NCBI GenBank assembly: GCA_009914755.4
Contig: CP068257.2
Coordinates: forward strand, 11,232,001-11,296,000
Direction: 5' to 3'
Length of the DNA: 64,000 bases
Source of the DNA: the human T2T-CHM13v2.0 reference genome, Homo sapiens
Below, piece after piece: positions 2,632 to 56,300 of the stretch (position 1 is its first letter; the number at the start of each line of letters is the position of its first letter). A program made the position numbers and the translations under genes. The notes under the pieces are model-generated. The model saw only the letters and a list, made by a program, of their open reading frames with translations. It ran no database searches and was not told where the DNA came from.

Positions 2632-2648
2632 TCCCGTTTCCAACGAAA
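2632..2648 (-). promoter_or_regulatory. CENP-B box, monomer M9; recurs at +1870n
   Basis: 'tcccgtttccaacgaaa'. The core is intact. Confidence 0.9.
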
Positions 2649-2802
2649 TCGTTAGAGCTATCCAAATATCCAGTTACAGTTTCTACCAAAAGGGTGTTTC
2701 CAAATTGCTGCATCAAAAGAAAGGTTCAACTCTGTTAGTTGAGGACACACATCACAAAGAAGTTTGTGAGAATGCTTCTGTCTAGATTTTGTATGACGAT
2801 AT

Positions 2803-2819
2803 TCCCTTTTCCAACGATA
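2803..2819 (-). promoter_or_regulatory. Degenerate, presumably non-binding CENP-B box remnant, monomer M10; recurs at +1870n
   Basis: 'tcccttttccaacgata'. The CCCG core and the CGAA core are both lost (CCCT, CGAT), so essential contacts are missing. Confidence 0.75.
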
Positions 2820-33400: not shown

Positions 33401-35349
33401 GAAATCATTAGAGCTATCCAAATATCCACTTACAGTTTCTACAAAAAGAGTGTTTCCAAACTGCTGCATGAAAAGAGAGGTTCCACTCTGTTAGCTGAGT
33501 ACACACATCACAAACTTGTTTCTCAGAATCCGTCTGTCTCGTTTTTATGGGAAGATATTTACTTTTTCACCGTAGGCATCAAAGCGCTCCAAATGTCCAC
33601 ATCCAGATACTCCAGAAAGAGTGTTTCAAACCTGCTCTATGAAAGGGAATGTTCAACTCTATGAGTTGAATGCAGACATCAGAAAGAAATTTCTGAGAAT
33701 GCTGCTGTCTACCTTTTATTTGAATTCCCGCTTCCAACGAAATCCTCCAAGCTATCCAAATATCCACTTGCAGATTCCACAAAAAGAGTGTTTCAAAACT
33801 GCTCTCTATCAATGGCAAAGTTCAACTCTGTTAGTTGAGGACACATATCACCAACAAGTTTCTGAGAATGCTTCTGTCTATTTTTTATGGGAAGATATTT
33901 CCTTTTTCACCGTAGGCGTCAAGGCGATCGAAATGTCCACTTCCACAAACTACAAAAAGAGTGTTTCAAACCTGCTCTATGAAAGGCCATGTTCATCTCT
34001 ATGAGTTGAATGGAAATATCCGAAAAAAATTTCTGGGAATGCTGCTGTCTAGTTTTTATATGAATTCCCGCTTCCAACGAAATCCTCAAAGCAATCCAAA
34101 TATCCACTTGCAGAATCCACAAAAAGAGTGTTTCAAAACTGCTCTATCAATAGAAAGGTTCAACTCTTTTAGTTGAGTACACACATCACAAACAAGTTTC
34201 TGAGAATGCTTCTGTCTGGCTTTTATTGGAAGACGTTTCCTTTTCACCAAAGGCATCAAAGCGCTCCAAATGTCCACTTCCAGATTCTTCCAAAAGAGTG
34301 TTTCAAACGTGGTCGAAGTAAGGGAATGTTCTACTCTGTGACTTGAATGCAGATATCACCAAGTAGTTTCTAATAGTGCTTCTGTCTAGATTTTAGATGA
34401 TGATATTCCCGTTTCCAACGAAATCGTTAGAGCTATCCAAATATCCAGTTACAGTTTCTACCAAAAGGGTGTTTCCAAATTGCTGCATCAAAAGAAAGGT
34501 TCAACTCTGTTAGTTGAGGACACACATCACAAAGAAGTTTGTGAGAATGCTTCTGTCTAGATTTTGTATGACGATATTCCCTTTTCCAACGATATCGTTA
34601 AAGCAATCTAAATATCAATTTGCAGAATCCACAAAAATAGAGTTTCAAAGCTGCTCTGTAAAAAGAAAGGTTCCACTCTGTTAGCTGAGTACACACATCA
34701 CAAACTTGTTTCTGAGAATCCTTCTGTCTCGTTTTTATGGGAAGATATTTACTTTTCCACCGTAGGCATCAAAGCGCTCCAAATGTCCACATCCAGATAC
34801 TCCAGAAAGAGTGTTTCAAACCTGCTCTATGAAAGGGAATCTTCAACTCTATGAGTTGAATGCAGACATCAGAAAGAAATTTCTGAGAATGCTGCTGTCT
34901 ACCTTTTATTTGAATTCCCGCTTCCAACGAAATCCTCCAAGCTATCCAAATATCCACTTGCATTTTCCACAAAAAGAGTGTTTCAAAACTGCTCTATCAA
35001 TAGAAATGTTCAACTCCTTTGGCTGGGTACACACATCACAAACAAGTTTCTGAGAATGCTTCTGTCTAGTTTTTATGGGAAGACATTCCCTTTTTCACCA
35101 AAGGCATCAAAGCGCTCCAAATGTCCACTTCCAGACACTACAAAAAGAGTGTTTCAAACGTGCTCTAAGAAAGCGAATGTTCAACTCTGTGACTTGAATG
35201 CAGATATCACAAAGTAGTTTCTGAGAGGGCTTCTGTCTAGATTTTAGATGATGATATTCCCGTTTCCAACGAAATCATTAGAGCTATACAAATATCCACT
35301 TACTGTTTCTACAAAAAGAGTGTTTCCAAACTGCTGCATCAAAAGAGAG

Positions 35350-38300
35350 GTTCCACTCTGTTAGCTGAGTACACACATCACAAACTTGTTTCTCAGAATC
35401 CTTCTGTCTCGTTTTTATGGGAAGATATTTACTTTTTCACCGTAGGCATCAAAGCGCTCCAAATGTCCACATCCAGATACTCCAGAAAGAGTGTTTCAAA
35501 CCTGCTCTATGAAAGGGAATCTTCAACTCTATGAGTTGAATGCAGACATCAGAAAGAAATTTCTGAGAATGCTGCTGTCTACCTTTTATTTGAATTCCCG
35601 CTTCCAACGAAATCCTCCAAGCTATCCAAATATCCACTTGCAGATTCCACAAAAAGAGTGTTTCAAAACTGCTCTCTATCAATGGCAAAGTTCAACTCTG
35701 TTAGTTGAGGACACATATCACCAACAAGTTTCTGAGAATGCTTCTGTCTATTTTTTATGGGAAGATATTTCCTTTTTCACCGTAGGCGTCAAGGCGATCG
35801 AAATGTCCACTTCCACAAACTACAAAAAGAGTGTTTCAAACCTGCTCTATGAAAGGCCATGTTCATCTCTATGAGTTGAATGGAAATATCCGAAAAAAAT
35901 TTCTGGGAATGCTGCTGTCTAGTTTTTATATGAATTCCCGCTTCCAACGAAATCCTCAAAGCAATCCAAATATCCACTTGCAGAATCCACAAAAAGAGTG
36001 TTTCAAAACTGCTCTATCAATAGAAAGGTTCAACTCTTTTAGTTGAGTACACACATCACGAACAAGTTTCTGAGAATGCTTCTGTCTGGCTTTTATTGGA
36101 AGACGTTTCCTTTTCACCAAAGGCATCAAAGCGCTCCAAATGTCCACTTCCAGATTCTTCCAAAAGAGTGTTTCAAACGTGCTCGAAGTAAGGGAATGTT
36201 CTACTCTGTGACTTGAATGCAGATATCACCAAGTAGTTTCTAATAGTGCTTCTGTCTAGATTTTAGATGATGATATTCCCGTTTCCAACGAAATCGTTAG
36301 AGCTATCCAAATATCCAGTTACAGTTTCTACCAAAAGGGTGTTTCCAAATTGCTGCATCAAAAGAAAGGTTCAACTCTGTTAGTTGAGGACACACATCAC
36401 AAAGAAGTTTGTGAGAATGCTTCTGTCTAGATTTTGTATGACGATATTCCCTTTTCCAACGATATCGTTAAAGCAATCTAAATATCAATTTGCAGAATCC
36501 ACAAAAATAGAGTTTCAAAGCTGCTCTGTAAAAAGAAAGGTTCCACTCTGTTAGCTGAGTACACACATCACAAACTTGTTTCTGAGAATCCTTCTGTCTC
36601 GTTTTTATGGGAAGATATTTACTTTTCCACCGTAGGCATCAAAGCGCTCCAAATGTCCACATCCAGATACTCCAGAACGAGTGTTTCAAACCTGCTCTAT
36701 GAAAGGGAATCTTCAACTCTATGAGTTGAATGCAGACATCAGAAAGAAATTTCTGAGAATGCTGCTGTCTACCTTTTATTTGAATTCCCGCTTCCAACGA
36801 AATCCTCCAAGCTATCCAAATATCCACTTGCATTTTCCACAAAAAGAGTGTTTCAAAACTGCTCTATCAATAGAAATGTTCAACTCCTTTGGCTGGGTAC
36901 ACACATCACAAACAAGTTTCTGAGAATGCTTCTGTCTAGTTTTTATGGGAAGACGTTCCCTTTTTCACCAAAGGCATCAAAGCGCTCCAAATGTCCACTT
37001 CCAGACACTACAAAAAGAGTGTTTCCAACGTGCTCTAAGAAAGCGAATGTTCAACTCTGTGACTTGAATGCAGATATCACAAAGTAGTTTCTGAGAGGGC
37101 TTCTGTCTAGATTTTAGATGATGATATTCCCGTTTCCAACGAAATCATTAGAGCTATCCAAATATCCACTTACAGTTTCTACAAAAAGAGTGTTTCCAAA
37201 CTGCTGCATCAAAAGAGAGGTTCCACTCTGTTAGCTGAGTACACACATCACAAACTTGTTTCTCAGAATCCTTCTGTCTCGTTTTTATGGGAAGATATTT
37301 ACTTTTTCACCGTAGGCATCAAAGCGCTCCAAATGTCCACATCCAGATACTCCAGAAAGAGTGTTTCAAACCTGCTCTATGAAAGGGAATCTTCAACTCT
37401 ATGAGTTGAATGCAGACATCAGAAAGAAATTTCTGAGAATGCTGCTGTCTACCTTTTATTTGAATTCCCGCTTCCAACGAAATCCTCCAAGCTATCCAAA
37501 TATCCACTTGCAGATTCCACAAAAAGAGTGTTTCAAAACTGCTCTCTATCAATGGCAAAGTTCAACTCTGTTAGTTGAGGACACATATCACCAACAAGTT
37601 TCTGAGAATGCTTCTGTCTATTTTTTATGGGAAGATATTTCCTTTATCACCGTAGGCGTCAAGGCGATCGAAATGTCCACTTCCACAAACTACAAAAAGA
37701 GTGTTTCAAACCTGCTCTATGAAAGGCCATGTTCATCTCTATGAGTTGAATGGAAATATCCGAAAGAAATTTCTGGGAATGCTGCTGTCTAGTGTTTATA
37801 CGAATTCCCGCTTCCAACGAAATCCTCAAAGCAATCCAAATATCCACTTGCAGAATCCACAAAAAGAGTGTTTCAAAACCGCTCTATCAATAGAAAGGTT
37901 CAACTCTTTTAGTTGAGTACACACATCACGAACAAGTTTCTGAGAATGCTTCTGTCTGGCTTTTATTGGAAGACGTTTCCTTTTCACCAAAGGCATCAAA
38001 GCGCTCCAAATGTCCACTTCCAGATTCTTCCAAAAGAGTGTTTCAAACGTGCTCGAAGTAAGGGAATGTTCATCTCTGTGACTTGAATGCAGATATCACC
38101 AAGTAGTTTCTAATAGTGCTTCTGTCTAGATTTTAGATGATGATATTCCCGTTTCCAACGAAATCGTTAGATCTATCCAAATATCCAGTTACAGTTTCTA
38201 CCAAAAGGGTGTTTCCAAATTGCTGCATCAAAAGAAAGGTTCAACTCTGTTAGTTGAGGACACACATCACAAAGAAGTTTGTGAGAATGCTTCTGTCTAG

Positions 38301-41300
38301 ATTTTGTATGATGATATTCCCTTTTCCAACGATATCGTTAAAGCAATCTAAATATCAATTTGCAGAATCCACAAAAATAGAGTTTCAAAGCTGCTCTGTA
38401 AAAAGAAAGGTTCCACTCTGTTAGCTGAGTACACACATCACAAACTTGTTTCTGAGAATCCTTCTGTCTCGTTTTTATGGGAAGATATTTACTTTTCCAC
38501 CGTAGGCATCAAAGCGCTCCAAATGTCCACATCCAGATACTCCAGAACGAGTGTTTCAAACCTGCTCTATGAAAGGGAATCTTCAACTCTATGAGTTGAA
38601 TGCAGACATCAGAAAGAAATTTCTGAGAATGCTGCTGTCTACCTTTTATTTGAATTCCCGCTTCCAACGAAATCCTCCAAGCTATCCAAATATCCACTTG
38701 CATTTTCCACAAAAAGAGTGTTTCAAAACTGCTCTATCAATAGAAATGTTCAACTCCTTTGGCTGGGTACACACATCACAAACAAGTTTCTGAGAATGCT
38801 TCTGTCTAGTTTTTATGGGAAGACGTTCCCTTTTTCACCAAAGGCATCAAAGCGCTCCAAATGTCCACTTCCAGACACTACAAAAAGAGTGTTTCCAACG
38901 TGCTCTAAGAAAGCGAATGTTCAACTCTGTGACTTGAATGCAGATATCACAAAGTAGTTTCTGAGAGGGCTTCTGTCTAGATTTTAGATGATGATATTCC
39001 CGTTTCCAACGAAATCATTAGAGCTATCCAAATATCCACTTACAGTTTCTACAAAAAGAGTGTTTCCAAACTGCTGCATCAAAAGAGAGGTTCCACTCTG
39101 TTAGCTGAGTACACACATCACAAACTTGTTTCTCAGAATCCTTCTGTCTCGTTTTTATGGGAAGATATTTACTTTTTCACCGTAGGCATCAAAGCGCTCC
39201 AAATGTCCACATCCAGATACTCCAGAAAGAGTGTTTCAAACCTGCTCTATGAAAGGGAATCTTCAACTCTATGAGTTGAATGCAGACATCAGAAAGAAAT
39301 TTCTGAGAATGCTGCTGTCTACCTTTTATTTGAATTCCCGCTTCCAACGAAATCCTCCAAGCTATCCAAATATCCACTTGCAGATTCCACAAAAAGAGTG
39401 TTTCAAAACTGCTCTCTATCAATGGCAAAGTTCAACTCTGTTAGTTGAGGACACATATCACCAACAAGTTTCTGAGAATGCTTCTGTCTATTTTTTATGG
39501 GAAGATATTTCCTTTTTCACCGTAGGCGTCAAGGCGATCGAAATGTCCACTTCCACAAACTACAAAAAGAGTGTTTCAAACCTGCTCTATGAAAGGCCAT
39601 GTTCATCTCTATGAGTTGAATGGAAATATCCGAAAGAAATTTCTGGGAATGCTGCTGTCTAGTGTTTATACGAATTTCCGCTTCCAACGAAATCCTCAAA
39701 GCAATCCAAATATCCACTTGCAGAATCCACAAAAAGAGTGTTTCAAAACTGCTCTATCAATAGAAAGGTTCAACTCTTTTAGTTGAGTACACACATCACG
39801 AACAAGTTTCTGAGAATGCTTCTGTCTGGCTTTTATTGGAAGACGTTTCCTTTTCACCAAAGGCATCAAAGCGCTCCAAATGTCCACTTCCAGATTCTTC
39901 CAAAAGAGTGTTTCAAACGTGCTCAAAGTAAGGGAATGTTCAACTCTGTGACTTGAATGCAGATATCACCAAGTAGTTTCTAATAGTGCTTCTGTCTACA
40001 TTTTAGATGATGATATTCCCGTTTCAAACGAAATCGTTAGAGCTATCCAAATATCCAGTTACAGTTTCTACCAAAAGGGTGTTTCCAAATTGCTGCATCA
40101 AAAGAAAGGTTCAACTCTGTTAGTTGAGGACACACATCACAAAGAAGTTTGTGAGAATGCTTCTGTCTAGATTTTGTATGACGATATTCCCTTTTCCAAC
40201 GATATCGTTAAAGCAATCTAAATATCAATTTGCAGAATCCACAAAAATAGAGTTTCAAAGCTGCTCTGTAAAAAGAAAGGTTCCACTCTGTTAGCTGAGT
40301 ACACACATCACAAACTTGTTTCTCAGAATCCTTCTGTCTCGTTTTTATGGGAAGATATTTACTTTTCCACCGTAGGCATCAAAGCGCTCCAAATGTCCAC
40401 ATCCAGATACTCCAGAAAGAGTGTTTCAAACCTGCTCTATGAAAGGGAATGTTCAACTCTATGAGTTGAATGCAGACATCAGAAAGAAATTTCTGAGAAT
40501 GCTGCTGTCTACCTTTTATTTGAATTCCCGCTTCCAACGAAATCCTCCAAGCTATCCAAATATCCACTTGCATTTTCCACAAAAAGAGTGTTTCAAAACT
40601 GCTCTATCAATAGAAATGTTCAACTCCTTTAGCTGGGTACACACATCACAAACAAGTTTCTGAGAATGCTTCTGTCTAGTTTTTATGGGAAGACGTTCCC
40701 TTTTTCACCAAAGGCATCAAAGCGCTCCAAATGTCCACTTCAAGACACTACAAAAAGAGTGTTTCCAACGTGCTCTAAGAAAGCGAATGTTCAACTCTGT
40801 GACTTGAATGCAGATATCACAAAGTAGTTTCTGAGAGGGCTTCTGTCTAGATTTTAGATGATGATATTCCCGTTTCCAACGAAATCATTAGAGCTATCCA
40901 AATATCCACTTACAGTTTCTACAAAAAGAGTGTTTCCAAACTGCTGCATCAAAAGAGAGGTTCCACTCTGTTAGCTGAGTACACACATCACAAACTTGTT
41001 TCTCAGAATCCTTCTGTCTCGTTTTTATGGGAAGATATTTACTTTTTCACCGTAGGCATCAAAGCGCTCCAAATGTCCACATCCAGATACTCCAGAAAGA
41101 GTGTTTCAAACCTGCTCTATGAAAGGGAATCTTCAACTCTATGAGTTGAATGCAGACATCAGAAAGAAATTTCTGAGAATGCTGCTGTCTACCTTTTATT
41201 TGAATTCCCGCTTCCAACGAAATCCTCCAAGCTATCCAAATATCCACTTGCAGATTCCACAAAAAGAGTGTTTCAAAACTGCTCTCTATCAATGGCAAAG

Positions 41301-42830
41301 TTCAACTCTGTTAGTTGAGGACACATATCACCAACAAGTTTCTGAGAATGCTTCTGTCTATTTTTTATGGGAAGATATTTCCTTTTTCACCGTAGGCGTC
41401 AAGGCGATCGAAATGTCCACTTCCACAAACTACAAAAAGAGTGTTTCAAACCTGCTCTATGAAAGGCCATGTTCATCTCTATGAGTTGAATGGAAATATC
41501 CGAAAGAAATTTCTGGGAATGCTGCTGTCTAGTGTTTATACGAATTCCCACTTCCAACGAAATCCTCAAAGCAATCCAAATATCCACTTGCAGAATCCAC
41601 AAAAAGAGTGTTTCAAAACTGCTCTATCAATAGAAAGGTTCAACTCTTTTAGTTGAGTACACACATCACGAACAAGTTTCTGAGAATGCTTCTGTCTGGC
41701 TTTTATTGGAAGACGTTTCCTTTTCACCAAAGGCATCAAAGCGCTCCAAATGTCCACTTCCAGATTCTTCCAAAAGAGTGTTTCAAACGTGCTCAAAGTA
41801 AGGGAATGTTCAACTCTGTGACTTGAATGCAGATATCACCAAGTAGTTTCTAATAGTGCTTCTGTCTAGATTTTAGATGATGATATTCCCGTTTCCAACG
41901 AAATCGTTAGAGCTATCCAAATATCCACTTACAGTTTCTACAAAAAGAGTGTTTCCAAACTGCTGCATCAAAAGAAAGGTTCAACTCTGTTAGTTGAGGA
42001 CACACATCACAAAGAAGTTTGTGAGAATGCTTCTGTCTAGATTTTGTATGACGATATTCCCTTTTCCAACGATATCGTTAAAGCAATCTAAATATCAATT
42101 TGCAGAATCCACAAAAATAGAGTTTCAAAGCTGCTCTGTAAAAAGAAAGGTTCCACTCTGTTAGCTGAGTACACACATCACAAACTTGTTTCTCAGAATC
42201 CTTCTGTCTCGTTTTTATGGGAAGATATTTACTTTTCCACCGTAGGCATCAAAGCGCTCCAAATGTCCACATCCAGATACTCCAGAACGAGTGTTTCAAA
42301 CCTGCTCTATGAAAGGGAATCTTCAACTCTATGAGTTGAATGCAGACATCAGAAAGAAATTTCTGAGAATGCTGCTGTCTACCTTTTATTTGAATTCCCG
42401 CTTCCAACGAAATCCTCCAAGCTATCCAAATATCCACTTGCATTTTCCACAAAAAGAGTGTTTCAAAACTGCTCTATCAATAGAAATGTTCAACTCCTTT
42501 GGCTGGGTACACACATCACAAACAAGTTTCTGAGAATGCTTCTGTCTAGTTTTTATGGGAAGACGTTCCCTTTTTCACCAAAGGCATCAAAGCGCTCCAA
42601 ATGTCCACTTCCAGACACTACAAAAAGAGTGTTTCCAACGTGCTCTAAGAAAGCGAATGTTCAACTCTGTGACTTGAATGCAGATATCACAAAGTAGTTT
42701 CTGAGAGGGCTTCTGTCTAGATTTTAGATGATGATATTCCCGTTTCCAACGAAATCATTAGAGCTATCCAAATATCCACTTACAGTTTCTACAAAAAGAG
42801 TGTTTCCAAACTGCTGCATCAAAAGAGAGG
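35350..42830 (-). repeat. 7,480-bp super-repeat block (4 HOR units), copy 1 of 2 (imperfect)
   Basis: Private variants recur at +7480: ttcctttatcacc (37640 and 45120), aaaaccgctc (37870 and 45350), gttcatctctg (38060 and 45540), gaatttccgc (39675 and 47155), ttcaagacac (40741 and 48221), gaattcccac (41545 and 49025). There are a few copy-specific differences, for example 40628 and 45280. Confidence 0.75.
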
Positions 42831-45800
42831 TTCCACTCTGTTAGCTGAGTACACACATCACAAACTTGTTTCTCAGAATCCTTCTGTCTCGTTTTTATGG
42901 GAAGATATTTACTTTTTCACCGTAGGCATCAAAGCGCTCCAAATGTCCACATCCAGATACTCCAGAAAGAGTGTTTCAAACCTGCTCTATGAAAGGGAAT
43001 CTTCAACTCTATGAGTTGAATGCAGACATCAGAAAGAAATTTCTGAGAATGCTGCTGTCTACCTTTTATTTGAATTCCCGCTTCCAACGAAATCCTCCAA
43101 GCTATCCAAATATCCACTTGCAGATTCCACAAAAAGAGTGTTTCAAAACTGCTCTCTATCAATGGCAAAGTTCAACTCTGTTAGTTGAGGACACATATCA
43201 CCAACAAGTTTCTGAGAATGCTTCTGTCTATTTTTTATGGGAAGATATTTCCTTTTTCACCGTAGGCGTCAAGGCGATCGAAATGTCCACTTCCACAAAC
43301 TACAAAAAGAGTGTTTCAAACCTGCTCTATGAAAGGCCATGTTCATCTCTATGAGTTGAATGGAAATATCCGAAAAAAATTTCTGGGAATGCTGCTGTCT
43401 AGTTTTTATATGAATTCCCGCTTCCAACGAAATCCTCAAAGCAATCCAAATATCCACTTGCAGAATCCACAAAAAGAGTGTTTCAAAACTGCTCTATCAA
43501 TAGAAAGGTTCAACTCTTTTAGTTGAGTACACACATCACGAACAAGTTTCTGAGAATGCTTCTGTCTGGCTTTTATTGGAAGACGTTTCCTTTTCACCAA
43601 AGGCATCAAAGCGCTCCAAATGTCCACTTCCAGATTCTTCCAAAAGAGTGTTTCAAACGTGCTCGAAGTAAGGGAATGTTCTACTCTGTGACTTGAATGC
43701 AGATATCACCAAGTAGTTTCTAATAGTGCTTCTGTCTAGATTTTAGATGATGATATTCCCGTTTCCAACGAAATCGTTAGAGCTATCCAAATATCCAGTT
43801 ACAGTTTCTACCAAAAGGGTGTTTCCAAATTGCTGCATCAAAAGAAAGGTTCAACTCTGTTAGTTGAGGACACACATCACAAAGAAGTTTGTGAGAATGC
43901 TTCTGTCTAGATTTTGTATGACGATATTCCCTTTTCCAACGATATCGTTAAAGCAATCTAAATATCAATTTGCAGAATCCACAAAAATAGAGTTTCAAAG
44001 CTGCTCTGTAAAAAGAAAGGTTCCACTCTGTTAGCTGAGTACACACATCACAAACTTGTTTCTGAGAATCCTTCTGTCTCGTTTTTATGGGAAGATATTT
44101 ACTTTTCCACCGTAGGCATCAAAGCGCTCCAAATGTCCACATCCAGATACTCCAGAACGAGTGTTTCAAACCTGCTCTATGAAAGGGAATCTTCAACTCT
44201 ATGAGTTGAATGCAGACATCAGAAAGAAATTTCTGAGAATGCTGCTGTCTACCTTTTATTTGAATTCCCGCTTCCAACGAAATCCTCCAAGCTATCCAAA
44301 TATCCACTTGCATTTTCCACAAAAAGAGTGTTTCAAAACTGCTCTATCAATAGAAATGTTCAACTCCTTTGGCTGGGTACACACATCACAAACAAGTTTC
44401 TGAGAATGCTTCTGTCTAGTTTTTATGGGAAGACGTTCCCTTTTTCACCAAAGGCATCAAAGCGCTCCAAATGTCCACTTCCAGACACTACAAAAAGAGT
44501 GTTTCCAACGTGCTCTAAGAAAGCGAATGTTCAACTCTGTGACTTGAATGCAGATATCACAAAGTAGTTTCTGAGAGGGCTTCTGTCTAGATTTTAGATG
44601 ATGATATTCCCGTTTCCAACGAAATCATTAGAGCTATCCAAATATCCACTTACAGTTTCTACAAAAAGAGTGTTTCCAAACTGCTGCATCAAAAGAGAGG
44701 TTCCACTCTGTTAGCTGAGTACACACATCACAAACTTGTTTCTCAGAATCCTTCTGTCTCGTTTTTATGGGAAGATATTTACTTTTTCACCGTAGGCATC
44801 AAAGCGCTCCAAATGTCCACATCCAGATACTCCAGAAAGAGTGTTTCAAACCTGCTCTATGAAAGGGAATCTTCAACTCTATGAGTTGAATGCAGACATC
44901 AGAAAGAAATTTCTGAGAATGCTGCTGTCTACCTTTTATTTGAATTCCCGCTTCCAACGAAATCCTCCAAGCTATCCAAATATCCACTTGCAGATTCCAC
45001 AAAAAGAGTGTTTCAAAACTGCTCTCTATCAATGGCAAAGTTCAACTCTGTTAGTTGAGGACACATATCACCAACAAGTTTCTGAGAATGCTTCTGTCTA
45101 TTTTTTATGGGAAGATATTTCCTTTATCACCGTAGGCGTCAAGGCGATCGAAATGTCCACTTCCACAAACTACAAAAAGAGTGTTTCAAACCTGCTCTAT
45201 GAAAGGCCATGTTCATCTCTATGAGTTGAATGGAAATATCCGAAAGAAATTTCTGGGAATGCTGCTGTCTAGTGTTTATATGAATTCCCGCTTCCAACGA
45301 AATCCTCAAAGCAATCCAAATATCCACTTGCAGAATCCACAAAAAGAGTGTTTCAAAACCGCTCTATCAATAGAAAGGTTCAACTCTTTTAGTTGAGTAC
45401 ACACATCACGAACAAGTTTCTGAGAATGCTTCTGTCTGGCTTTTATTGGAAGACGTTTCCTTTTCACCAAAGGCATCAAAGCGCTCCAAATGTCCACTTC
45501 CAGATTCTTCCAAAAGAGTGTTTCAAACGTGCTCGAAGTAAGGGAATGTTCATCTCTGTGACTTGAATGCAGATATCACCAAGTAGTTTCTAATAGTGCT
45601 TCTGTCTAGATTTTAGATGATGATATTCCCGTTTCCAACGAAATCGTTAGATCTATCCAAATATCCAGTTACAGTTTCTACCAAAAGGGTGTTTCCAAAT
45701 TGCTGCATCAAAAGAAAGGTTCAACTCTGTTAGTTGAGGACACACATCACAAAGAAGTTTGTGAGAATGCTTCTGTCTAGATTTTGTATGATGATATTCC

Positions 45801-48800
45801 CTTTTCCAACGATATCGTTAAAGCAATCTAAATATCAATTTGCAGAATCCACAAAAATAGAGTTTCAAAGCTGCTCTGTAAAAAGAAAGGTTCCACTCTG
45901 TTAGCTGAGTACACACATCACAAACTTGTTTCTGAGAATCCTTCTGTCTCGTTTTTATGGGAAGATATTTACTTTTCCACCGTAGGCATCAAAGCGCTCC
46001 AAATGTCCACATCCAGATACTCCAGAAAGAGTGTTTCAAACCTGCTCTATGAAAGGGAATCTTCAACTCTATGAGTTGAATGCAGACATCAGAAAGAAAT
46101 TTCTGAGAATGCTGCTGTCTACCTTTTATTTGAATTCCCGCTTCCAACGAAATCCTCCAAGCTATCCAAATATCCACTTGCATTTTCCACAAAAAGAGTG
46201 TTTCAAAACTGCTCTATCAATAGAAATGTTCAACTCCTTTGGCTGGGTACACACATCACAAACAAGTTTCTGAGAATGCTTCTGTCTAGTTTTTATGGGA
46301 AGACGTTCCCTTTTTCACCAAAGGCATCAAAGCGCTCCAAATGTCCACTTCCAGACACTACAAAAAGAGTGTTTCCAACGTGCTCTAAGAAAGCGAATGT
46401 TCAACTCTGTGACTTGAATGCAGATATCACAAAGTAGTTTCTGAGAGGGCTTCTGTCTAGATTTTAGATGATGATATTCCCGTTTCCAACGAAATCATTA
46501 GAGCTATCCAAATATCCACTTACAGTTTCTACAAAAAGAGTGTTTCCAAACTGCTGCATCAAAAGAGAGGTTCCACTCTGTTAGCTGAGTACACACATCA
46601 CAAACTTGTTTCTCAGAATCCTTCTGTCTCGTTTTTATGGGAAGATATTTACTTTTTCACCGTAGGCATCAAAGCGCTCCAAATGTCCACATCCAGATAC
46701 TCCAGAAAGAGTGTTTCAAACCTGCTCTATGAAAGGGAATCTTCAACTCTATGAGTTGAATGCAGACATCAGAAAGAAATTTCTGAGAATGCTGCTGTCT
46801 ACCTTTTATTTGAATTCCCGCTTCCAACGAAATCCTCCAAGCTATCCAAATATCCACTTGCAGATTCCACAAAAAGAGTGTTTCAAAACTGCTCTCTATC
46901 AATGGCAAAGTTCAACTCTGTTAGTTGAGGACACATATCACCAACAAGTTTCTGAGAATGCTTCTGTCTATTTTTTATGGGAAGATATTTCCTTTTTCAC
47001 CGTAGGCGTCAAGGCGATCGAAATGTCCACTTCCACAAACTACAAAAAGAGTGTTTCAAACCTGCTCTATGAAAGGCCATGTTCATCTCTATGAGTTGAA
47101 TGGAAATATCCGAAAGAAATTTCTGGGAATGCTGCTGTCTAGTGTTTATACGAATTTCCGCTTCCAACGAAATCCTCAAAGCAATCCAAATATCCACTTG
47201 CAGAATCCACAAAAAGAGTGTTTCAAAACTGCTCTATCAATAGAAAGGTTCAACTCTTTTAGTTGAGTACACACATCACGAACAAGTTTCTGAGAATGCT
47301 TCTGTCTGGCTTTTATTGGAAGACGTTTCCTTTTCACCAAAGGCATCAAAGCGCTCCAAATGTCCACTTCCAGATTCTTCCAAAAGAGTGTTTCAAACGT
47401 GCTCAAAGTAAGGGAATGTTCAACTCTGTGACTTGAATGCAGATATCACCAAGTAGTTTCTAATAGTGCTTCTGTCTACATTTTAGATGATGATATTCCC
47501 GTTTCAAACGAAATCGTTAGAGCTATCCAAATATCCAGTTACAGTTTCTACCAAAAGGGTGTTTCCAAATTGCTGCATCAAAAGAAAGGTTCAACTCTGT
47601 TAGTTGAGGACACACATCACAAAGAAGTTTGTGAGAATGCTTCTGTCTAGATTTTGTATGACGATATTCCCTTTTCCAACGATATCGTTAAAGCAATCTA
47701 AATATCAATTTGCAGAATCCACAAAAATAGAGTTTCAAAGCTGCTCTGTAAAAAGAAAGGTTCCACTCTGTTAGCTGAGTACACACATCACAAACTTGTT
47801 TCTCAGAATCCTTCTGTCTCGTTTTTATGGGAAGATATTTACTTTTCCACCGTAGGCATCAAAGCGCTCCAAATGTCCACATCCAGATACTCCAGAAAGA
47901 GTGTTTCAAACCTGCTCTATGAAAGGGAATGTTCAACTCTATGAGTTGAATGCAGACATCAGAAAGAAATTTCTGAGAATGCTGCTGTCTACCTTTTATT
48001 TGAATTCCCGCTTCCAACGAAATCCTCCAAGCTATCCAAATATCCACTTGCATTTTCCACAAAAAGAGTGTTTCAAAACTGCTCTATCAATAGAAATGTT
48101 CAACTCCTTTGGCTGGGTACACACATCACAAACAAGTTTCTGAGAATGCTTCTGTCTAGTTTTTATGGGAAGACGTTCCCTTTTTCACCAAAGGCATCAA
48201 AGCGCTCCAAATGTCCACTTCAAGACACTACAAAAAGAGTGTTTCCAACGTGCTCTAAGAAAGCGAATGTTCAACTCTGTGACTTGAATGCAGATATCAC
48301 AAAGTAGTTTCTGAGAGGGCTTCTGTCTAGATTTTAGATGATGATATTCCCGTTTCCAACGAAATCATTAGAGCTATCCAAATATCCACTTACAGTTTCT
48401 ACAAAAAGAGTGTTTCCAAACTGCTGCATCAAAAGAGAGGTTCCACTCTGTTAGCTGAGTACACACATCACAAACTTGTTTCTCAGAATCCTTCTGTCTC
48501 GTTTTTATGGGAAGATATTTACTTTTTCACCGTAGGCATCAAAGCGCTCCAAATGTCCACATCCAGATACTCCAGAAAGAGTGTTTCAAACCTGCTCTAT
48601 GAAAGGGAATCTTCAACTCTATGAGTTGAATGCAGACATCAGAAAGAAATTTCTGAGAATGCTGCTGTCTACCTTTTATTTGAATTCCCGCTTCCAACGA
48701 AATCCTCCAAGCTATCCAAATATCCACTTGCAGATTCCACAAAAAGAGTGTTTCAAAACTGCTCTCTATCAATGGCAAAGTTCAACTCTGTTAGTTGAGG

Positions 48801-50310
48801 ACACATATCACCAACAAGTTTCTGAGAATGCTTCTGTCTATTTTTTATGGGAAGATATTTCCTTTTTCACCGTAGGCGTCAAGGCGATCGAAATGTCCAC
48901 TTCCACAAACTACAAAAAGAGTGTTTCAAACCTGCTCTATGAAAGGCCATGTTCATCTCTATGAGTTGAATGGAAATATCCGAAAGAAATTTCTGGGAAT
49001 GCTGCTGTCTAGTGTTTATACGAATTCCCACTTCCAACGAAATCCTCAAAGCAATCCAAATATCCACTTGCAGAATCCACAAAAAGAGTGTTTCAAAACT
49101 GCTCTATCAATAGAAAGGTTCAACTCTTTTAGTTGAGTACACACATCACGAACAAGTTTCTGAGAATGCTTCTGTCTGGCTTTTATTGGAAGACGTTTCC
49201 TTTTCACCAAAGGCATCAAAGCGCTCCAAATGTCCACTTCCAGATTCTTCCAAAAGAGTGTTTCAAACGTGCTCAAAGTAAGGGAATGTTCAACTCTGTG
49301 ACTTGAATGCAGATATCACCAAGTAGTTTCTAATAGTGCTTCTGTCTAGATTTTAGATGATGATATTCCCGTTTCCAACGAAATCGTTAGAGCTATCCAA
49401 ATATCCACTTACAGTTTCTACAAAAAGAGTGTTTCCAAACTGCTGCATCAAAAGAAAGGTTCAACTCTGTTAGTTGAGGACACACATCACAAAGAAGTTT
49501 GTGAGAATGCTTCTGTCTAGATTTTGTATGACGATATTCCCTTTTCCAACGATATCGTTAAAGCAATCTAAATATCAATTTGCAGAATCCACAAAAATAG
49601 TTTCAAAGCTGCTCTGTAAAAAGAAAGGTTCCACTCTGTTAGCTGAGTACACACATCACAAACTTGTTTCTCAGAATCCTTCTGTCTCGTTTTTATGGGA
49701 AGATATTTACTTTTCCACCGTAGGCATCAAAGCGCTCCAAATGTCCACATCCAGATACTCCAGAACGAGTGTTTCAAACCTGCTCTATGAAAGGGAATCT
49801 TCAACTCTATGAGTTGAATGCAGACATCAGAAAGAAATTTCTGAGAATGCTGCTGTCTACCTTTTATTTGAATTCCCGCTTCCAACGAAATCCTCCAAGC
49901 TATCCAAATATCCACTTGCATTTTCCACAAAAAGAGTGTTTCAAAACTGCTCTATCAATAGAAATGTTCAACTCCTTTGGCTGGGTACACACATCACAAA
50001 CAAGTTTCTGAGAATGCTTCTGTCTAGTTTTTATGGGAAGACGTTCCCTTTTTCACCAAAGGCATCAAAGCGCTCCAAATGTCCACTTCCAGACACTACA
50101 AAAAGAGTGTTTCCAACGTGCTCTAAGAAAGCGAATGTTCAACTCTGTGACTTGAATGCAGATATCACAAAGTAGTTTCTGAGAGGGCTTCTGTCTAGAT
50201 TTTAGATGATGATATTCCCGTTTCCAACGAAATCATTAGAGCTATCCAAATATCCACTTACAGTTTCTACAAAAAGAGTGTTTCCAAACTGCTGCATCAA
50301 AAGAGAGGTT
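42831..50310 (-). repeat. 7,480-bp super-repeat block (4 HOR units), copy 2 of 2
   Basis: See copy 1. It also carries a private 2-bp deletion at about 49600 (acaaaaatagtttcaaagc). Confidence 0.75.
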
Positions 50311-53300
50311 CCACTCTGTTAGCTGAGTACACACATCACAAACTTGTTTCTCAGAATCCTTCTGTCTCGTTTTTATGGGAAGATATTTACTTTTTCACCG
50401 TAGGCATCAAAGCGCTCCAAATGTCCACATCCAGATACTCCAGAAAGAGTGTTTCAAACCTGCTCTATGAAAGGGAATCTTCAACTCTATGAGTTGAATG
50501 CAGACATCAGAAAGAAATTTCTGAGAATGCTGCTGTCTACCTTTTATTTGAATTCCCGCTTCCAACGAAATCCTCCAAGCTATCCAAATATCCACTTGCA
50601 GATTCCACAAAAAGAGTGTTTCAAAACTGCTCTCTATCAATGGCAAAGTTCAACTCTGTTAGTTGAGGACACATATCACCAACAAGTTTCTGAGAATGCT
50701 TCTGTCTATTTTTTATGGGAAGATATTTCCTTTTTCACCGTAGGCGTCAAGGCGATCGAAATGTCCACTTCCACAAACTACAAAAAGAGTGTTTCAAACC
50801 TGCTCTATGAAAGGCCATGTTCATCTCTATGAGTTGAATGGAAATATCCGAAAGAAATTTCTGGGAATGCTGCTGTCTAGTGTTTATACGAATTTCCGCT
50901 TCCAACGAAATCCTCAAAGCAATCCAAATATCCACTTGCAGAATCCACAAAAAGAGTGTTTCAAAACTGCTCTATCAATAGAAAGGTTCAACTCTTTTAG
51001 TTGAGTACACACATCACGAACAAGTTTCTGAGAATGCTTCTGTCTGGCTTTTATTGGAAGACGTTTCCTTTTCACCAAAGGCATCAAAGCGCTCCAAATG
51101 TCCACTTCCAGATTCTTCCAAAAGAGTGTTTCAAACGTGCTCAAAGTAAGGGAATGTTCAACTCTGTGACTTGAATGCAGATATCACCAAGTAGTTTCTA
51201 ATAGTGCTTCTGTCTACATTTTAGATGATGATATTCCCGTTTCAAACGAAATCGTTAGAGCTATCCAAATATCCAGTTACAGTTTCTACCAAAAGGGTGT
51301 TTCCAAATTGCTGCATCAAAAGAAAGGTTCAACTCTGTTAGTTGAGGACACACATCACAAAGAAGTTTGTGAGAATGCTTCTGTCTAGATTTTGTATGAC
51401 GATATTCCCTTTTCCAACGATATCGTTAAAGCAATCTAAATATCAATTTGCAGAATCCACAAAAATAGAGTTTCAAAGCTGCTCTGTAAAAAGAAAGGTT
51501 CCACTCTGTTAGCTGAGTACACACATCACAAACTTGTTTCTCAGAATCCTTCTGTCTCGTTTTTATGGGAAGATATTTACTTTTCCACCGTAGGCATCAA
51601 AGCGCTCCAAATGTCCACATCCAGATACTCCAGAAAGAGTGTTTCAAACCTGCTCTATGAAAGGGAATCTTCAACTCTATGAGTTGAATGCAGACATCAG
51701 AAAGAAATTTCTGAGAATGCTGCTGTCTACCTTTTATTTGAATTCCCGCTTCCAACGAAATCCTCCAAGCTATCCAAATATCCACTTGCATTTTCCACAA
51801 AAAGAGTGTTTCAAAACTGCTCTATCAATAGAAATGTTCAACCCCTTTGGCTGGGTACACACATCACAAACAAGTTTCTGAGAATGCTTCTGTCTAGTTT
51901 TTATGGGAAGACGTTCCCTTTTTCACCAAAGGCATCAAAGCGCTCCAAATGTCCACTTCAAGACACTACAAAAAGAGTGTTTCCAACGTGCTCTAAGAAA
52001 GCGAATGTTCAACTCTGTGACTTGAATGCAGATATCACAAAGTAGTTTCTGAGAGGGCTTCTGTCTAGATTTTAGATGATGATATTCCCGTTTCCAACGA
52101 AATCATTAGAGCTATCCAAATATCCACTTACAGTTTCTACAAAAAGAGTGTTTCCAAACTGCTGCATCAAAAGAGAGGTTCCACTCTGTTAGCTGAGTAC
52201 ACACATCACAAACTTGTTTCTCAGAATCCTTCTGTCTCGTTTTTATGGGAAGATATTTACTTTTTCACCGTAGGCATCAAAGCGCTCCAAATGTCCACAT
52301 CCAGATACTCCAGAAAGAGTGTTTCAAACCTGCTCTATGAAAGGGAATCTTCAACTCTATGAGTTGAATGCAGACATCAGAAAGAAATTTCTGAGAATGC
52401 TGCTGTCTACCTTTTATTTGAATTCCCGCTTCCAACGAAATCCTCCAAGCTATCCAAATATCCACTTGCAGATTCCACAAAAAGAGTGTTTCAAAACTGC
52501 TCTCTATCAATGGCAAAGTTCAACTCTGTTAGTTGAGGACACATATCACCAACAAGTTTCTGAGAATGCTTCTGTCTATTTTTTATGGGAAGATATTTCC
52601 TTTTTCACCGTAGGCGTCAAGGCGATCGAAATGTCCACTTCCACAAACTACAAAAAGAGTGTTTCAAACCTGCTCTATGAAAGGCCATGTTCATCTCTAT
52701 GAGTTGAATGGAAATATCCGAAAGAAATTTCTGGGAATGCTGCTGTCTAGTGTTTATACGAATTCCCACTTCCAACGAAATCCTCAAAGCAATCCAAATA
52801 TCCACTTGCAGAATCCACAAAAAGAGTGTTTCAAAACTGCTCTATCAATAGAAAGGTTCAACTCTTTTAGTTGAGTACACACATCACGAACAAGTTTCTG
52901 AGAATGCTTCTGTCTGGCTTTTATTGGAAGACGTTTCCTTTTCACCAAAGGCATCAAAGCGCTCCAAATGTCCACTTCCAGATTCTTCCAAAAGAGTGTT
53001 TCAAACGTGCTCAAAGTAAGGGAATGTTCAACTCTGTGACTTGAATGCAGATATCACCAAGTAGTTTCTAATAGTGCTTCTGTCTAGATTTTAGATGATG
53101 ATATTCCCGTTTCCAACGAAATCGTTAGAGCTATCCAAATATCCACTTACAGTTTCTACAAAAAGAGTGTTTCCAAACTGCTGCATCAAAAGAAAGGTTC
53201 AACTCTGTTAGTTGAGGACACACATCACAAAGAAGTTTGTGAGAATGCTTCTGTCTAGATTTTGTATGACGATATTCCCTTTTCCAACGATATCGTTAAA

Positions 53301-56300
53301 GCAATCTAAATATCAATTTGCAGAATCCACAAAAATAGAGTTTCAAAGCTGCTCTGTAAAAAGAAAGGTTCCACTCTGTTAGCTGAGTACACACATCACA
53401 AACTTGTTTCTGAGAATCCTTCTGTCTCGTTTTTATGGGAAGATATTTACTTTTCCACCGTAGGCATCAAAGCGCTCCAAATGTCCACATCCAGATACTC
53501 CAGAACGAGTGTTTCAAACCTGCTCTATGAAAGGGAATCTTCAACTCTATGAGTTGAATGCAGACATCAGAAAGAAATTTCTGAGAATGCTGCTGTCTAC
53601 CTTTTATTTGAATTCCCGCTTCCAACGAAATCCTCCAAGCTATCCAAATATCCACTTGCATTTTCCACAAAAAGAGTGTTTCAAAACTGCTCTATCAATA
53701 GAAATGTTCAACTCCTTTGGCTGGGTACACACATCACAAACAAGTTTCTGAGAATGCTTCTGTCTAGTTTTTATGGGAAGACGTTCGCTTTTTCACCAAA
53801 GGCATCAAAGCGCTCCAAATGTCCACTTCCAGACACTACAAAAAGAGTGTTTCCAACGTGCTCTAAGAAAGCGAATGTTCAACTCTGTGACTTGAATGCA
53901 GATATCACAAAGTAGTTTCTGAGAGGGCTTCTGTCTAGATTTTAGATGATGATATTCCCGTTTCCAACGAAATCATTAGAGCTATCCAAATATCCACTTA
54001 CAGTTTCTACAAAAAGAGTGTTTCCAAACTGCTGCATCAAAAGAGAGGTTCCACTCTGTTAGCTGAGTACACACATCACAAACTTGTTTCTCAGAATCCT
54101 TCTGTCTCGTTTTTATGGGAAGATATTTACTTTTTCACCGTAGGCATCAAAGCGCTCCAAATGTCCACATCCAGATACTCCAGAAAGAGTGTTTCAAACC
54201 TGCTCTATGAAAGGGAATCTTCAACTCTATGAGTTGAATGCAGACATCAGAAAGAAATTTCTGAGAATGCTGCTGTCTACCTTTTATTTGAATTCCCGCT
54301 TCCAACGAAATCCTCCAAGCTATCCAAATATCCACTTGCAGATTCCACAAAAAGAGTGTTTCAAAACTGCTCTCTATCAATGGCAAAGTTCAACTCTGTT
54401 ACTTGAGGACACATATCACCAACAGGTTTCTGAGAATGCTTCTGTCTATTTTTTATGGGAAGATATTTCCTTTTTCACCGTAGGCGTCAAGGCGATCGAA
54501 ATGTCCACTTCCACAAACTACAAAAAGAGTGTTTCAAACCTGCTCTATGAAAGGCCATGTTCATCTCTATGAGTTGAATGGAAATATCCGAAAGAAATTT
54601 CTGGGAATGCTGCTGTCTAGTTTTTATACGAATTCCCGCTTCCAACGAAATCCTCAAAGCAATCCAAATATCCACTTGCAGAATCCACAAAAAGAGTGTT
54701 TCAAAACTGCTCTATCAATAGAAAGGTTCAACTCTTTTAGTTGAGTACACACATCACGAACAAGTTTCTCAGAATGCTTCCGTCTGGCTTTTATTGGAAG
54801 ACGTTTCCTTTTCACCAAAGGCATCAAAGCGCTCCAAATGTCCACTTCCAGATTCTTCCAAAAGAGTGTTTCAAACGTGCTCAAAGTAAGGGAATGTTCA
54901 ACTCTGTGACTTGAATGCAGATATCACCAAGTAGTTTCTAATAGTGTTTCTGTCTAGATTTTAGATGATGATATTCCCGTTTCCAACGAAATCGTTAGAG
55001 CTATCCAAATATCCACTTACAGTTTCTACAAAAAGGGTGTTTCCAAACTGCTGCATCAAAAGAAAGGTTCAACTCTGTTAGTTGAGGACACACATCACAA
55101 AGAAGTTTGTGAGAATGCTTCTGTCTAGATTTTGTATGACGATATTCCCTTTTCCAACGATATCGTTAAAGCAATCTAAATATCAATTTGCAGAATCCAC
55201 AAAAATAGAGTTTCAAAGCTGCTCTGTAAAAAGAAAGGTTCCACTCTGTTAGCTGAGTACACACATCACAAACTTGTTTCTGAGAATCCTTCTGTCTTGT
55301 TTTTATGGGAAGATATTTACTTTTTCACCGTAGGCATCAAAGGGCTCCAAATGTCCACATCCAGATACTCCAGAAAGAGTGTTTCAAACCTGCTCTATGA
55401 AAGGGAATCTTCAACTCTATGAGTTGAATGCAGACATCAGAAAGAAATTTCTGAGAATGCTGCTGTCTACCTTTTATGTGAATTCCCGCTTCCAATGAAA
55501 TCCTCCAAGCTATCCAAATATCCACCTGCATTTTCCACAAAAAGAGTGTTTCAAAACTGCTCTATCAATAGAAATGTTCAACTCCTTTGGCTGGGTACAC
55601 ACATCACAAACAAGTTTCTGAGAATGCTTCTGTCTAGTTTTTATGGGAAGACATTCCCTTTTTCACCAAAGGCATCAAAGCGCTCCAAATGTCCACTTCC
55701 AGACACTACAAAAAGAGTGTTTCCAACGTGCTCTAAGAAAGCGAATGATCAACTCTGTGACTTGAATGCAGATATCACAAAGTAGTTTCTGAGAGGGCTT
55801 CTGTCTAGATTTTAGACGATGATATTCCCGTTTCCAACGAAATCATTAGAGCTATCCAAATATCCACTTACAGTTTCTACAAAAAGAGTGTTTCCAAACT
55901 GCTGCATCAGAAGAGAGGTTCCACTCTGTTAGCTGAGTACACACATCACAAACTTGTTTCTCAGAATCCTTCTGTCTCGTTTTTATGGGAAGATATTTAC
56001 TTTTTCACCGTAGGCATCAAAGCGCTGCAAATGTCCACATCCAGATACTCCAGAAAGAGTGTTTCAAACCTGCTCTATGAAAGGGAATCTTCAACTCTAT
56101 GAGTTGAATGCAGACATCAGAAAGAAATTTCTGAGAATGCTGCTGTCTACCTTTTATTTGAATTCCCGCTTCCAACGAAATCCTCCAAGCTATCCAAATA
56201 TCCACTTGCTGATTCCACAGAAAGAGTGTTTCAAAACTGCTCTCTATCAATGGCAAAGTTCAACTCTGTTAGTTGAGGACACATATCACCAACAAGTTTC

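What the first reader, a model, noticed from the sequence alone, without database searches (positions are those of the whole stretch)
35350..54200. Nested super-repeats: a 7.48-kb (4-HOR) block twice, and a 3.74-kb 'E–V' HOR doublet three times
Private variants recur at +7480 (for example gaatttccgc, gaattcccac, ttcctttatcacc). Within and beyond that block, two HOR subtypes alternate: LEAEIRIN-type at 39529, 47009 and 50747, and LEVGIRIN-type at 41399, 48879 and 52617. This shows layered, imperfect expansions that are older than the 5.6-kb duplicate, since a few copy-private changes have accumulated.
Basis: seen in the sequence. Interest (0 to 1): 0.5.

Follow-up and report, generated by a model that had tools for sequence, protein, structure and literature searches.

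The report
Nested duplications in centromeric alpha satellite
The window is human centromeric alpha-satellite DNA of the chromosome 13/21 type, and the reported nested repeats are real local duplications of four and of two 1.87-kb repeat units, a well-documented way for such arrays to grow.

Summary
The window is one alpha-satellite array of 171-bp monomers arranged in a 1,870-bp, 11-monomer higher-order repeat (HOR). The C-D doublet occurs three times, and only the last two copies are adjacent. Two junction units are chimeras: D-head with H19-type tail, and D-head with B-type tail. That is the expected footprint of in-register but out-of-phase homologous exchange. Shared derived variants suggest the 2-HOR duplication came first and the 4-HOR duplication later copied one of its products. 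The claim "older than the 5.6-kb duplicate" has the right direction but is not significant (p≈0.12). The HOR matches alpha21-I (D21Z1/D13Z1): five CENP-B boxes, EcoRI pieces of 5, 4 and 2 monomers, and both published Cen21 primers. Nested recent duplications in HOR arrays are already described. The finding is real but ordinary.

The parts
35305..42784 (.). Copy 1 of the 7,480-bp (4-HOR, types A-B-C-D) block. The left breakpoint lies anywhere in 35305-35895.
   Evidence: The +7480 match starts just after the H19-private variant at 35304. There are 3 substitutions (37801, 38548, 40631) against copy 2.
42785..50262 (.). Copy 2 of the 4-HOR block, 7,478 bp because of a 2-bp deletion at 49598. Identity to copy 1 continues to 50853, where only consensus sequence is compared.
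39529..43268 (.). First C-D ('E-V') HOR doublet (R22+R23), inside block copy 1.
   Evidence: C markers are 297C, 324A, 622C, 749G, 1040A and 1856A. D markers are 356C, 370A, 376A, 388C, 622C and 716C.
47009..50746 (.). Second C-D doublet (R26+R27), inside block copy 2.
   Evidence: It carries the same markers as the first doublet. d(R22,R26)=1 and d(R23,R27)=2.
50747..54486 (.). Third C-D doublet (R28+R29), directly after the second. It is the most diverged of the three. The right breakpoint lies in 53506-54622.
   Evidence: It lacks 749G and 622C(D) and has 4 private substitutions (51843, 53787, 54402, 54425). The NJ tree gives ((R22,R26),R28) and ((R23,R27),R29).
42785..43375 (.). Exchange interval of the 4-HOR duplication. 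It lies inside the chimeric unit H23, which has a D-type head and an H19-type tail.
   Evidence: H23 carries the D-type markers up to 716C (42288). It then carries the tail markers 1808A, 1836T and 1843T (43376, 43404, 43411); 1808A is otherwise seen only in H18 and H19, and the full triplet only in those two units. The H19-private site 35304 gives the left limit.
49767..50894 (.). Exchange interval of the 2-HOR duplication. It lies inside the chimeric unit H27, which has a D-type head and a B-type tail.
   Evidence: H27 has D markers up to 716C (49766). It then has the B-tail marker 1853T (50895), which precedes every C unit (39677, 47157, 50895).
39676..39690 (-). CENP-B box core hit by the 'E' SNV (C>T at 39677). 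The same change occurs at 47157 and 50895. It also destroys an EcoRI site.
   Evidence: The + strand changes from CCCGCTTCCAACGAA to TCCGCTTCCAACGAA. R22, R26 and R28 have 4 instead of 5 intact boxes. EcoRI spacing becomes 1190.
41546..41560 (-). The same CENP-B box position in the next HOR unit, hit by the 'V' SNV (G>A at a CpG, 41550). The same change occurs at 49030 and 52768.
   Evidence: CCCG becomes CCCA on the + strand. R23, R27 and R29 have 4 intact boxes.

Best explanation
The region is part of a human alpha21-I-type (D21Z1/D13Z1) alpha-satellite array. It was enlarged by two successive tandem segmental duplications. In each, homologous HOR units paired in register at the base level but out of phase by a whole number of units.

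The most likely history starts from H19-A-B-C-D. An exchange between unit B and unit D, two units apart, gave A-B-C-D*-C-D, where D* has a D head and a B tail. After a few substitutions, a second exchange occurred between H19 and D*, four units apart. It gave A-B-C-D^-A-B-C-D*-C-D, where D^ has a D head and an H19 tail.

Shown here: the copy structure, the chimeric junction units and the clustering of copies. Inferred: the order of the two events, and the enzymology. The enzymology could be unequal sister-chromatid exchange or crossing-over, or out-of-register re-initiation during break-induced replication. These cannot be told apart from one haplotype. No function beyond array growth and turnover is implied.
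For: The array has a 171-bp period throughout and a 1870-bp, 11-monomer HOR with 31 regular copies.

Identity as alpha21-I rests on these points:
- There are five CENP-B boxes per HOR on the minus strand.
- EcoRI pieces are 5, 4 and 2 monomers, as published for the alpha21-I 11mer (PMC2173396).
- Both published Cen21 primers match in convergent orientation with a 195-bp product, the reverse primer once and the forward primer twice per HOR (primers from PMC4694756 and PMC7679138).
- Published D8Z2 monomers are only 81-87% identical.
- Contaminant contigs from metagenomes, three of them named as human gut metagenome assemblies, carry the HOR; eight are 99.1-99.8% identical to its consensus.

Evidence for the duplications:
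- The 8,071-bp match at +7480 has 3 substitutions and one indel.
- About 25 non-consensus markers are collinear between the copies.
- The NJ tree pairs R20/R24 and R21/R25 and gives (R22,R26),R28 and (R23,R27),R29.
- The permutation test gives 10 of 200,000.
- The chimeric junction units H23 and H27 sit exactly where single exchanges predict.

Evidence for the order: the derived variants 749G and 622C are shared by copies 1 and 2 only. Branch lengths are clock-like under this order, 4, 3 and 3 changes. Divergence is 7/4853 for the doublet against 4/8071 for the block.

The same kind of local, nested recent duplication is described for CHM13 HOR arrays (Altemose et al. preprint 10.1101/2021.07.12.452052).
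Against: The order of events rests on two sites plus small counts (p≈0.07). Reversion to consensus by gene conversion in the third doublet would allow the opposite order. The junction structure is identical under both orders. One of the three block differences, 45281 C>T, is a transition at a CpG site that varies in other units, and another, 38548/46028, falls at a site that is polymorphic across the array. These two may be recurrent mutation or conversion rather than clock-like change. I could not check read support, so an assembly or modelling artefact is not formally excluded. Chromosome 13 and chromosome 21 cannot be told apart here.
Confidence: 0.85

Rival explanations
1. The two duplications are the same but occurred in the opposite order. 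The 4-HOR block duplicated first, giving A-B-C-D^-A-B-C-D. The C-D doublet of the second copy then duplicated.
For: It gives exactly the same chimeric junction units, H23 and H27. d(R26,R28)=2 is nearly as small as d(R22,R26)=1.
Against: It needs 749G and 622C to arise and then both revert in the third doublet, 4 steps against 2. It also leaves very unequal sister branches since the last event, 6 changes against 1 (binomial p≈0.125 by hand calculation).
Confidence: 0.25
2. The pattern is an artefact of the sequence source. It could be a mis-assembly that falsely expands the array, or a generated centromere model in which a short-memory chain re-walks the same path of variants.
For: The window holds long perfectly identical stretches: 1-14124 is exactly 1870-periodic, and the 5.6-kb duplicate has 0 differences. 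In the finding, each unit's tail predicts the next unit's head, which a low-order chain would also produce. This could not be tested with the tools available.
Against: The copies are not identical. They carry private substitutions and an indel, and their tree is hierarchical and clock-like, which a re-walked path or a copy-paste error would not produce. Marker haplotypes extend over more than 1.4 kb within units. Comparable identical runs and nested duplications are reported in validated complete assemblies.
Confidence: 0.07
3. There was no change in copy number. Long-tract gene conversion overwrote pre-existing units with the sequence of units 4 and 2 positions away.
For: Conversion is a recognised homogenising force in satellites. 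A few single-site differences (716, 1843) look like conversion or recurrent mutation.
Against: Tracts of about 7.5 kb and 3.7 kb would be needed. They would have to be exactly in phase and to end in the same intervals expected for single exchanges. Duplication explains the chimeric junction units more simply.
Confidence: 0.05
4. The C-D ('E-V') pair is an emerging 22-monomer higher-order unit. It would be favoured, for example, because each member has lost the same CENP-B box.
For: All six C and D units lack the same CENP-B box, through two independent mutations. The pair has been copied twice.
Against: There are only three copies, two of them adjacent. None of 22 instances of this monomer in 20 independent contaminant contigs carries E or V. 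Other local duplications in the window involve units with all five boxes. One of the two changes is an ordinary CpG transition.
Confidence: 0.03

Closest known systems
alpha21-I 11mer (D21Z1/D13Z1; S2C13/21H1L in T2T naming, the name given from my own knowledge)
   Same: It has 11 monomers, five CENP-B boxes on alternate monomers, and EcoRI fragments of 4, 2 and 5 monomers. Both Cen21 qPCR primers match.
   Different: Nothing in the unit itself differs. The window's unit is 1870 bp, with local 1867-bp and 1868-bp variants. Assignment to chromosome 13 or 21 could not be made.
Zones of recent, local and nested HOR duplication in complete human centromeres (Altemose et al., 10.1101/2021.07.12.452052; DXZ1 kinetochore region, cen12)
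   Same: These are tandem duplications of one to several HOR units lying next to each other. Younger ones contain products of older ones. They are detected through shared private variants or exact-match dot plots.
   Different: This example is small, 2 and 4 units or 19 kb in all. Its position relative to the CENP-A or hypomethylated region is unknown.
Saltatory amplification and unequal crossing-over models of alpha-satellite evolution (Logsdon et al. 2024, PMC11062924; Rice, bioRxiv 10.1101/731430, BIR-based model)
   Same: In-register, out-of-phase homologous events change copy number and spread variant units locally.
   Different: The window shows only the products. It cannot discriminate exchange from break-induced replication.
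D8Z2 11-monomer HOR of chromosome 8
   Same: It also has 11 monomers, a dimeric (SF2-like) A/B alternation, and structural variants that differ by 4 monomers.
   Different: Its unit is 1,881 bp rather than 1,870 bp. Published monomers A, B, C and K are only 81-87% identical to the best-matching monomers here. This is not the same array.

Membership tests
Primate alpha satellite | Head-to-tail tandem monomers of about 171 bp across the region | tested here: met
   TRF gives period 171 and 376.5 copies over 3-63987.
Primate alpha satellite | Monomers resemble the alpha-satellite consensus and carry the 17-bp CENP-B box motif in B-type monomers | tested here: met
The motif TTCGNNNNANNCGGG occurs 158 times on the minus strand and 0 times on the plus strand.
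alpha21-I 11mer (D21Z1/D13Z1) | Higher-order unit of 11 monomers, highly homogeneous between copies | tested here: met
   The period is 1870 bp, equal to 11 monomers. There are 31 regular copies, and the median difference over all pairs of the 30 aligned copies is 16 per 1870 bp.
alpha21-I 11mer (D21Z1/D13Z1) | Five CENP-B boxes per unit (Ohzeki et al. 2002, PMC2173396) | tested here: met
   The consensus unit has five boxes, spaced 2, 2, 3, 2 and 2 monomers apart.
alpha21-I 11mer (D21Z1/D13Z1) | EcoRI cuts the unit into 4-, 2- and 5-monomer pieces (PMC2173396) | tested here: met
   GAATTC lies at 144, 994 and 1674 of the consensus, giving spacings of 850, 680 and 340 bp.
alpha21-I 11mer (D21Z1/D13Z1) | Published chromosome-21 alphoid primers anneal (PMC4694756, PMC7679138) | tested here: met
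   The forward primer matches exactly at two sites in most units. The reverse primer matches once per unit with 0-2 mismatches. They are convergent and give a 195-bp product.
alpha21-I 11mer (D21Z1/D13Z1) | Location at the centromere of chromosome 13 or 21 | not testable with these tools
   No human reference was available. The only support for a human origin is the set of eight 99.1-99.8% identical contaminant contigs among 20 metagenome contigs carrying the HOR.
D8Z2 (chromosome 8 11-mer) | Near-identity to the published D8Z2 monomers | tested here: not met
   Identity is 81-87%.
Tandem segmental duplication by out-of-phase homologous exchange | Period is an exact multiple of the HOR, and copies are more alike than other units | tested here: met
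   Periods are 7480 (4 x 1870) and 3738/3740 (2 x 1870). Copies differ by 0-6 sites, against a median of 16 for all pairs.
Tandem segmental duplication by out-of-phase homologous exchange | The junction unit is a chimera of the two parental unit types | tested here: met
   H23 has a D head and an H19 tail. H27 has a D head and a B tail.
Tandem segmental duplication by out-of-phase homologous exchange | Mechanism (sister-chromatid exchange, meiotic crossover or break-induced replication) and the reciprocal product | not testable with these tools
   Only one haplotype is available.
New higher-order unit (22-mer or 44-mer 'super-HOR') | Many tandem iterations, so that the larger period dominates a stretch of the array | tested here: not met
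   There are only 2.08 copies of the 44-monomer period and two adjacent copies of the 22-monomer period, plus one dispersed copy. E and V are absent from 22 independent instances of this monomer.

The most novel reading that the evidence does not exclude
Two neighbouring HOR units independently lost the same CENP-B box, one by CCCG>TCCG and one by CCCG>CCCA. This box-poor pair is the unit that was then amplified twice. This could mean that local loss of CENP-B binding favours, or marks, sites of recurrent out-of-phase recombination, or that a 22-monomer unit is being born.
Probability: 0.04. Interest if true: 0.4.

Novelty: already known. Interest (0 to 1): 0.12.

Why it matters
It matters little beyond bookkeeping. 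It is a clean small-scale example of how alpha-satellite arrays grow by successive local duplications of whole HOR units. The junction chimeras are resolved to intervals of 0.6 to 1.1 kb, and the order of events can be inferred. Such variant-tagged blocks are useful as unique markers for assembling and validating centromeres and for tracing centromere haplotypes. The phenomenon itself is established for human centromeres.

Tried and rejected
- D8Z2 (chromosome 8 11-mer) was my first guess from the 11-monomer unit and the 15- and 19-monomer spacings. I rejected it: the published monomers are only 81-87% identical and the published unit is 1,881 bp.
- The strong ungapped self-identity at offset 29,905 looked like a 30-kb macro-repeat. 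It is a register effect: 16 units minus five 3-bp deletions. Lag-16 unit distances are ordinary (about 19).
- A lag-2 permutation statistic over four consecutive positions was uninformative, because the three doublets are not all adjacent.
- A metagenome scan for the E-type box variant found nothing. The degenerate scan found 20 contaminant contigs, all with the consensus box, so no independent copy of the E or V units was obtained.
- The repeat finder could not be run at the needed seed and length limits. I used my own scripts instead.
- The 33mer HOR reported for hg38 chromosome 21 (PMC6718397) is a different array: 5,639 bp, with 19% divergence between its monomers. It is unrelated to the 5,607-bp (3 x 11-mer) duplicate here.
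- A coding interpretation of the peptide-like labels was rejected. The region holds only short, HOR-periodic ORFs of at most 127 aa with GTG or TTG starts.
Full report
**What the window is**

Tandem Repeats Finder reports one array of 171-bp units over 3-63987. Base composition is flat, at 38-39% GC, dropping slightly after 58 kb. Self-comparison peaks at 1870 bp and its multiples. HOR-specific 20-mers recur every 1870 bp, with a few 1867-bp and 1868-bp steps, from 447 to 56530. After that the spacings are 3234 and 2544 bp. The window therefore holds 31 regular copies of an 11-monomer higher-order repeat (HOR), followed by irregular units.

The conventional alpha-satellite orientation is on the minus strand. 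The CENP-B box core TTCGNNNNANNCGGG occurs 158 times on the minus strand and never on the plus strand. There are five boxes per HOR, on alternate monomers. Two monomers four positions apart are 99% identical. That explains the internal 680-bp and 1190-bp peaks.

**Which array**

I first suspected D8Z2. The published D8Z2 unit is 1,881 bp, and its monomers A, B, C and K are only 81-87% identical to the best-matching monomers here, so it is not D8Z2.

The unit matches the alpha21-I 11mer (D21Z1/D13Z1) on these points:
- It has five CENP-B boxes.
- EcoRI cuts it into 5-, 4- and 2-monomer pieces, as described for alpha21-I (PMC2173396).
- Both published Cen21 primers (PMC4694756 and PMC7679138) anneal in convergent orientation and give a 195-bp product. 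The forward primer matches at two sites per unit and the reverse primer at one.

Twenty metagenome contigs contain this HOR, and three of them are named as human gut metagenome assemblies. Eight are 99.1-99.8% identical to the window's consensus. That fits human contamination and a human origin. Chromosome 13 and chromosome 21 cannot be told apart with the tools available.

**Checking the observation**

I cut the array into HOR copies, aligned them and tabulated every non-consensus site. From 35.8 to 54.5 kb the unit types run A B C D A B C D C D.
- R20-R23 against R24-R27 differ by 0, 2, 1 and 2 sites per 1870 bp.
- R22, R26 and R28 differ from each other by 1-3 sites. R23, R27 and R29 differ by 2-6 sites.
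- The median for all pairs is 16.

At the base level the +7480 match runs 35305-43375 against 42785-50853. That is 8,071 bp with substitutions at 37801, 38548 and 40631 and a 2-bp deletion at 49598.

LEAEIRIN and LEVGIRIN are minus-strand translations at 39687/47167/50905 and 41557/49037/52775. They correspond to single-base variants at HOR columns 1853 (C>T) and 1856 (G>A).

A neighbour-joining tree gives (R20,R24), (R21,R25), ((R22,R26),R28) and ((R23,R27),R29). The copies therefore cluster by exactly the proposed offsets. Only 10 of 200,000 shuffles of unit order reproduced as good a lag-4 run. The one correction is that the three doublets are not three in tandem.

**How it arose**

The junction units are informative. 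H23, the last unit of block copy 1, has D-type markers up to column 716 (42288). It then has the tail markers 1808A, 1836T and 1843T. 1808A is otherwise seen only in H18 and H19, the units just left of the block, and those two are the only other units with the full triplet. H27, the last unit of block copy 2, has the same D-type head but the tail marker 1853T, which precedes every C unit.

These chimeras are what single exchanges between homologous units produce when the units pair in register but four or two units out of phase. The exchange intervals are 42785-43375 and 49767-50894.

Both possible orders of the two events predict the same junctions. The order must therefore come from the variants. 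749G is shared by H22 and H26 but not H28. 622C in the D units is shared by H23 and H27 but not H29. Both are derived relative to all other units. The third doublet has four private substitutions, against one change each in the other two.

With the doublet duplication first, the three lineages have 4, 3 and 3 changes. With the block first, two reversions and a 6-to-1 imbalance are needed. Divergence is 7 changes in 4,853 bp for the doublet against 4 in 8,071 bp for the block (p≈0.07). I therefore favour the order 2-HOR duplication first, then a 4-HOR duplication that copied one of its products, with moderate confidence (about 0.65-0.7).

The molecular route could be unequal sister-chromatid exchange or crossover, or out-of-register break-induced replication. 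It cannot be resolved from one haplotype.

**The relative-age claim**

The 5.6-kb duplicate is 15506-21242 against 21113-26849. It has a period of 5607 bp and no differences over 5,737 bp. One of the block's three substitutions, 45281 C>T, is a transition at a CpG site that also varies in other units. Another, 38548/46028, falls at a site that is polymorphic across the array. Recurrent mutation or conversion may therefore contribute.

**Context in the window**

Local duplication is the rule here.
- Positions 1-14124 are perfectly 1870-periodic, about 7.5 identical units.
- A 3-unit block is duplicated perfectly.
- An 1867-bp variant unit occurs three times, at 27932-33650.
- Then comes the nested structure of this finding.

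By my count from the distance tables, about 25 of the 30 aligned units belong to such a family. To the right of about 57.8 kb the units become irregular and more diverged. That fits older layers lying toward an edge of the array.

**Comparison with what is known**

Local zones of recent duplication, 'patterns of recent nested duplication' and layered expansion have been described for complete human centromeres (Altemose et al.). Saltatory amplification and unequal exchange are the standard explanations (Logsdon et al. 2024; Rice). This finding is a small and clear instance of that known behaviour.

**One detail worth recording**

On the plus strand the changes are CCCG>TCCG and CCCG>CCCA. All six C and D units therefore have four intact boxes instead of five. 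The E change also removes an EcoRI site. None of 22 independent instances of this monomer in the contaminant contigs carries either change. I regard this as most likely coincidental.

**Caveats**

I could not verify read support or the provenance of the sequence. If the window came from a statistically generated centromere model, the long-range order would not be biological. The hierarchical, clock-like pattern of private changes argues against a simple artefact.

**Verdict**

The age comparison is only suggestive, and I add an inferred order of events. The kind of feature is already known, so interest is low.

Noticed in passing
window 1-14124: This stretch is perfectly 1870-bp periodic. About 7.5 consecutive HOR copies show no difference at all at lag 1870 (first mismatch at 12255+1870). 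It is the youngest expansion in the window, or a place where assembly support should be checked.
   Followed up: partly
window 15506-26849: A 3-HOR (5,607-bp) tandem duplication, 15506-21242 against 21113-26849, has 0 differences over 5,737 bp. The apparent 2 differences in the first phase were a boundary effect.
   Followed up: yes
window 27932-33650 (units H16-H18): A variant HOR of 1867 bp has three deleted bases (one single-base and one 2-bp deletion) and about 15 private substitutions. It is present three times in tandem: two copies are identical and the third differs near its end.
   Followed up: partly
window 57800-64000: The regular 11-monomer order breaks down. Monomer strings such as abcdifgh-bcdifg-cdijk and abcdifg-cd-bcdijk appear, with anchor spacings of 3234 and 2544 bp (19 and 15 monomers). 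Monomer identity to the consensus falls to about 80-90% and GC drops slightly. This is probably an older layer or an edge of the array.
   Followed up: partly
window 39677, 47157, 50895 (E) and 41550, 49030, 52768 (V); also 20644 and 26251; unit R30: Both marker SNVs destroy the CGGG core of the same CENP-B box in adjacent units, and E also removes an EcoRI site. Units R11 and R14 lose a different box through the same CCCG>CCCA change. R30 lacks yet another box; the change responsible was not identified. Box loss tags several of the locally duplicated units.
   Followed up: partly
HOR consensus, monomers 2 and 6 (minus-strand order): Two monomers four positions apart are 99% identical, and their neighbours are about 91% identical. 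This is an internal 4-monomer duplication within the 11-mer. It explains the 680-bp and 1190-bp self-similarity peaks and offers sites for exchanges that create variants 4 monomers longer or shorter.
   Followed up: partly
whole window, offset 29905: Ungapped self-identity of 0.63 at offset 29,905 is a register artefact (16 units minus five 3-bp deletions). It is not a 30-kb macro-repeat.
   Followed up: yes
loci L001-L020 (metagenome contigs): Twenty metagenome contigs, three of them named as human gut metagenome assemblies, contain this HOR. Eight are 99.1-99.8% identical to the window consensus. Others are 83-95% identical and are presumably related arrays or chimeric assemblies. This is human contamination in public metagenome assemblies.
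   Followed up: partly
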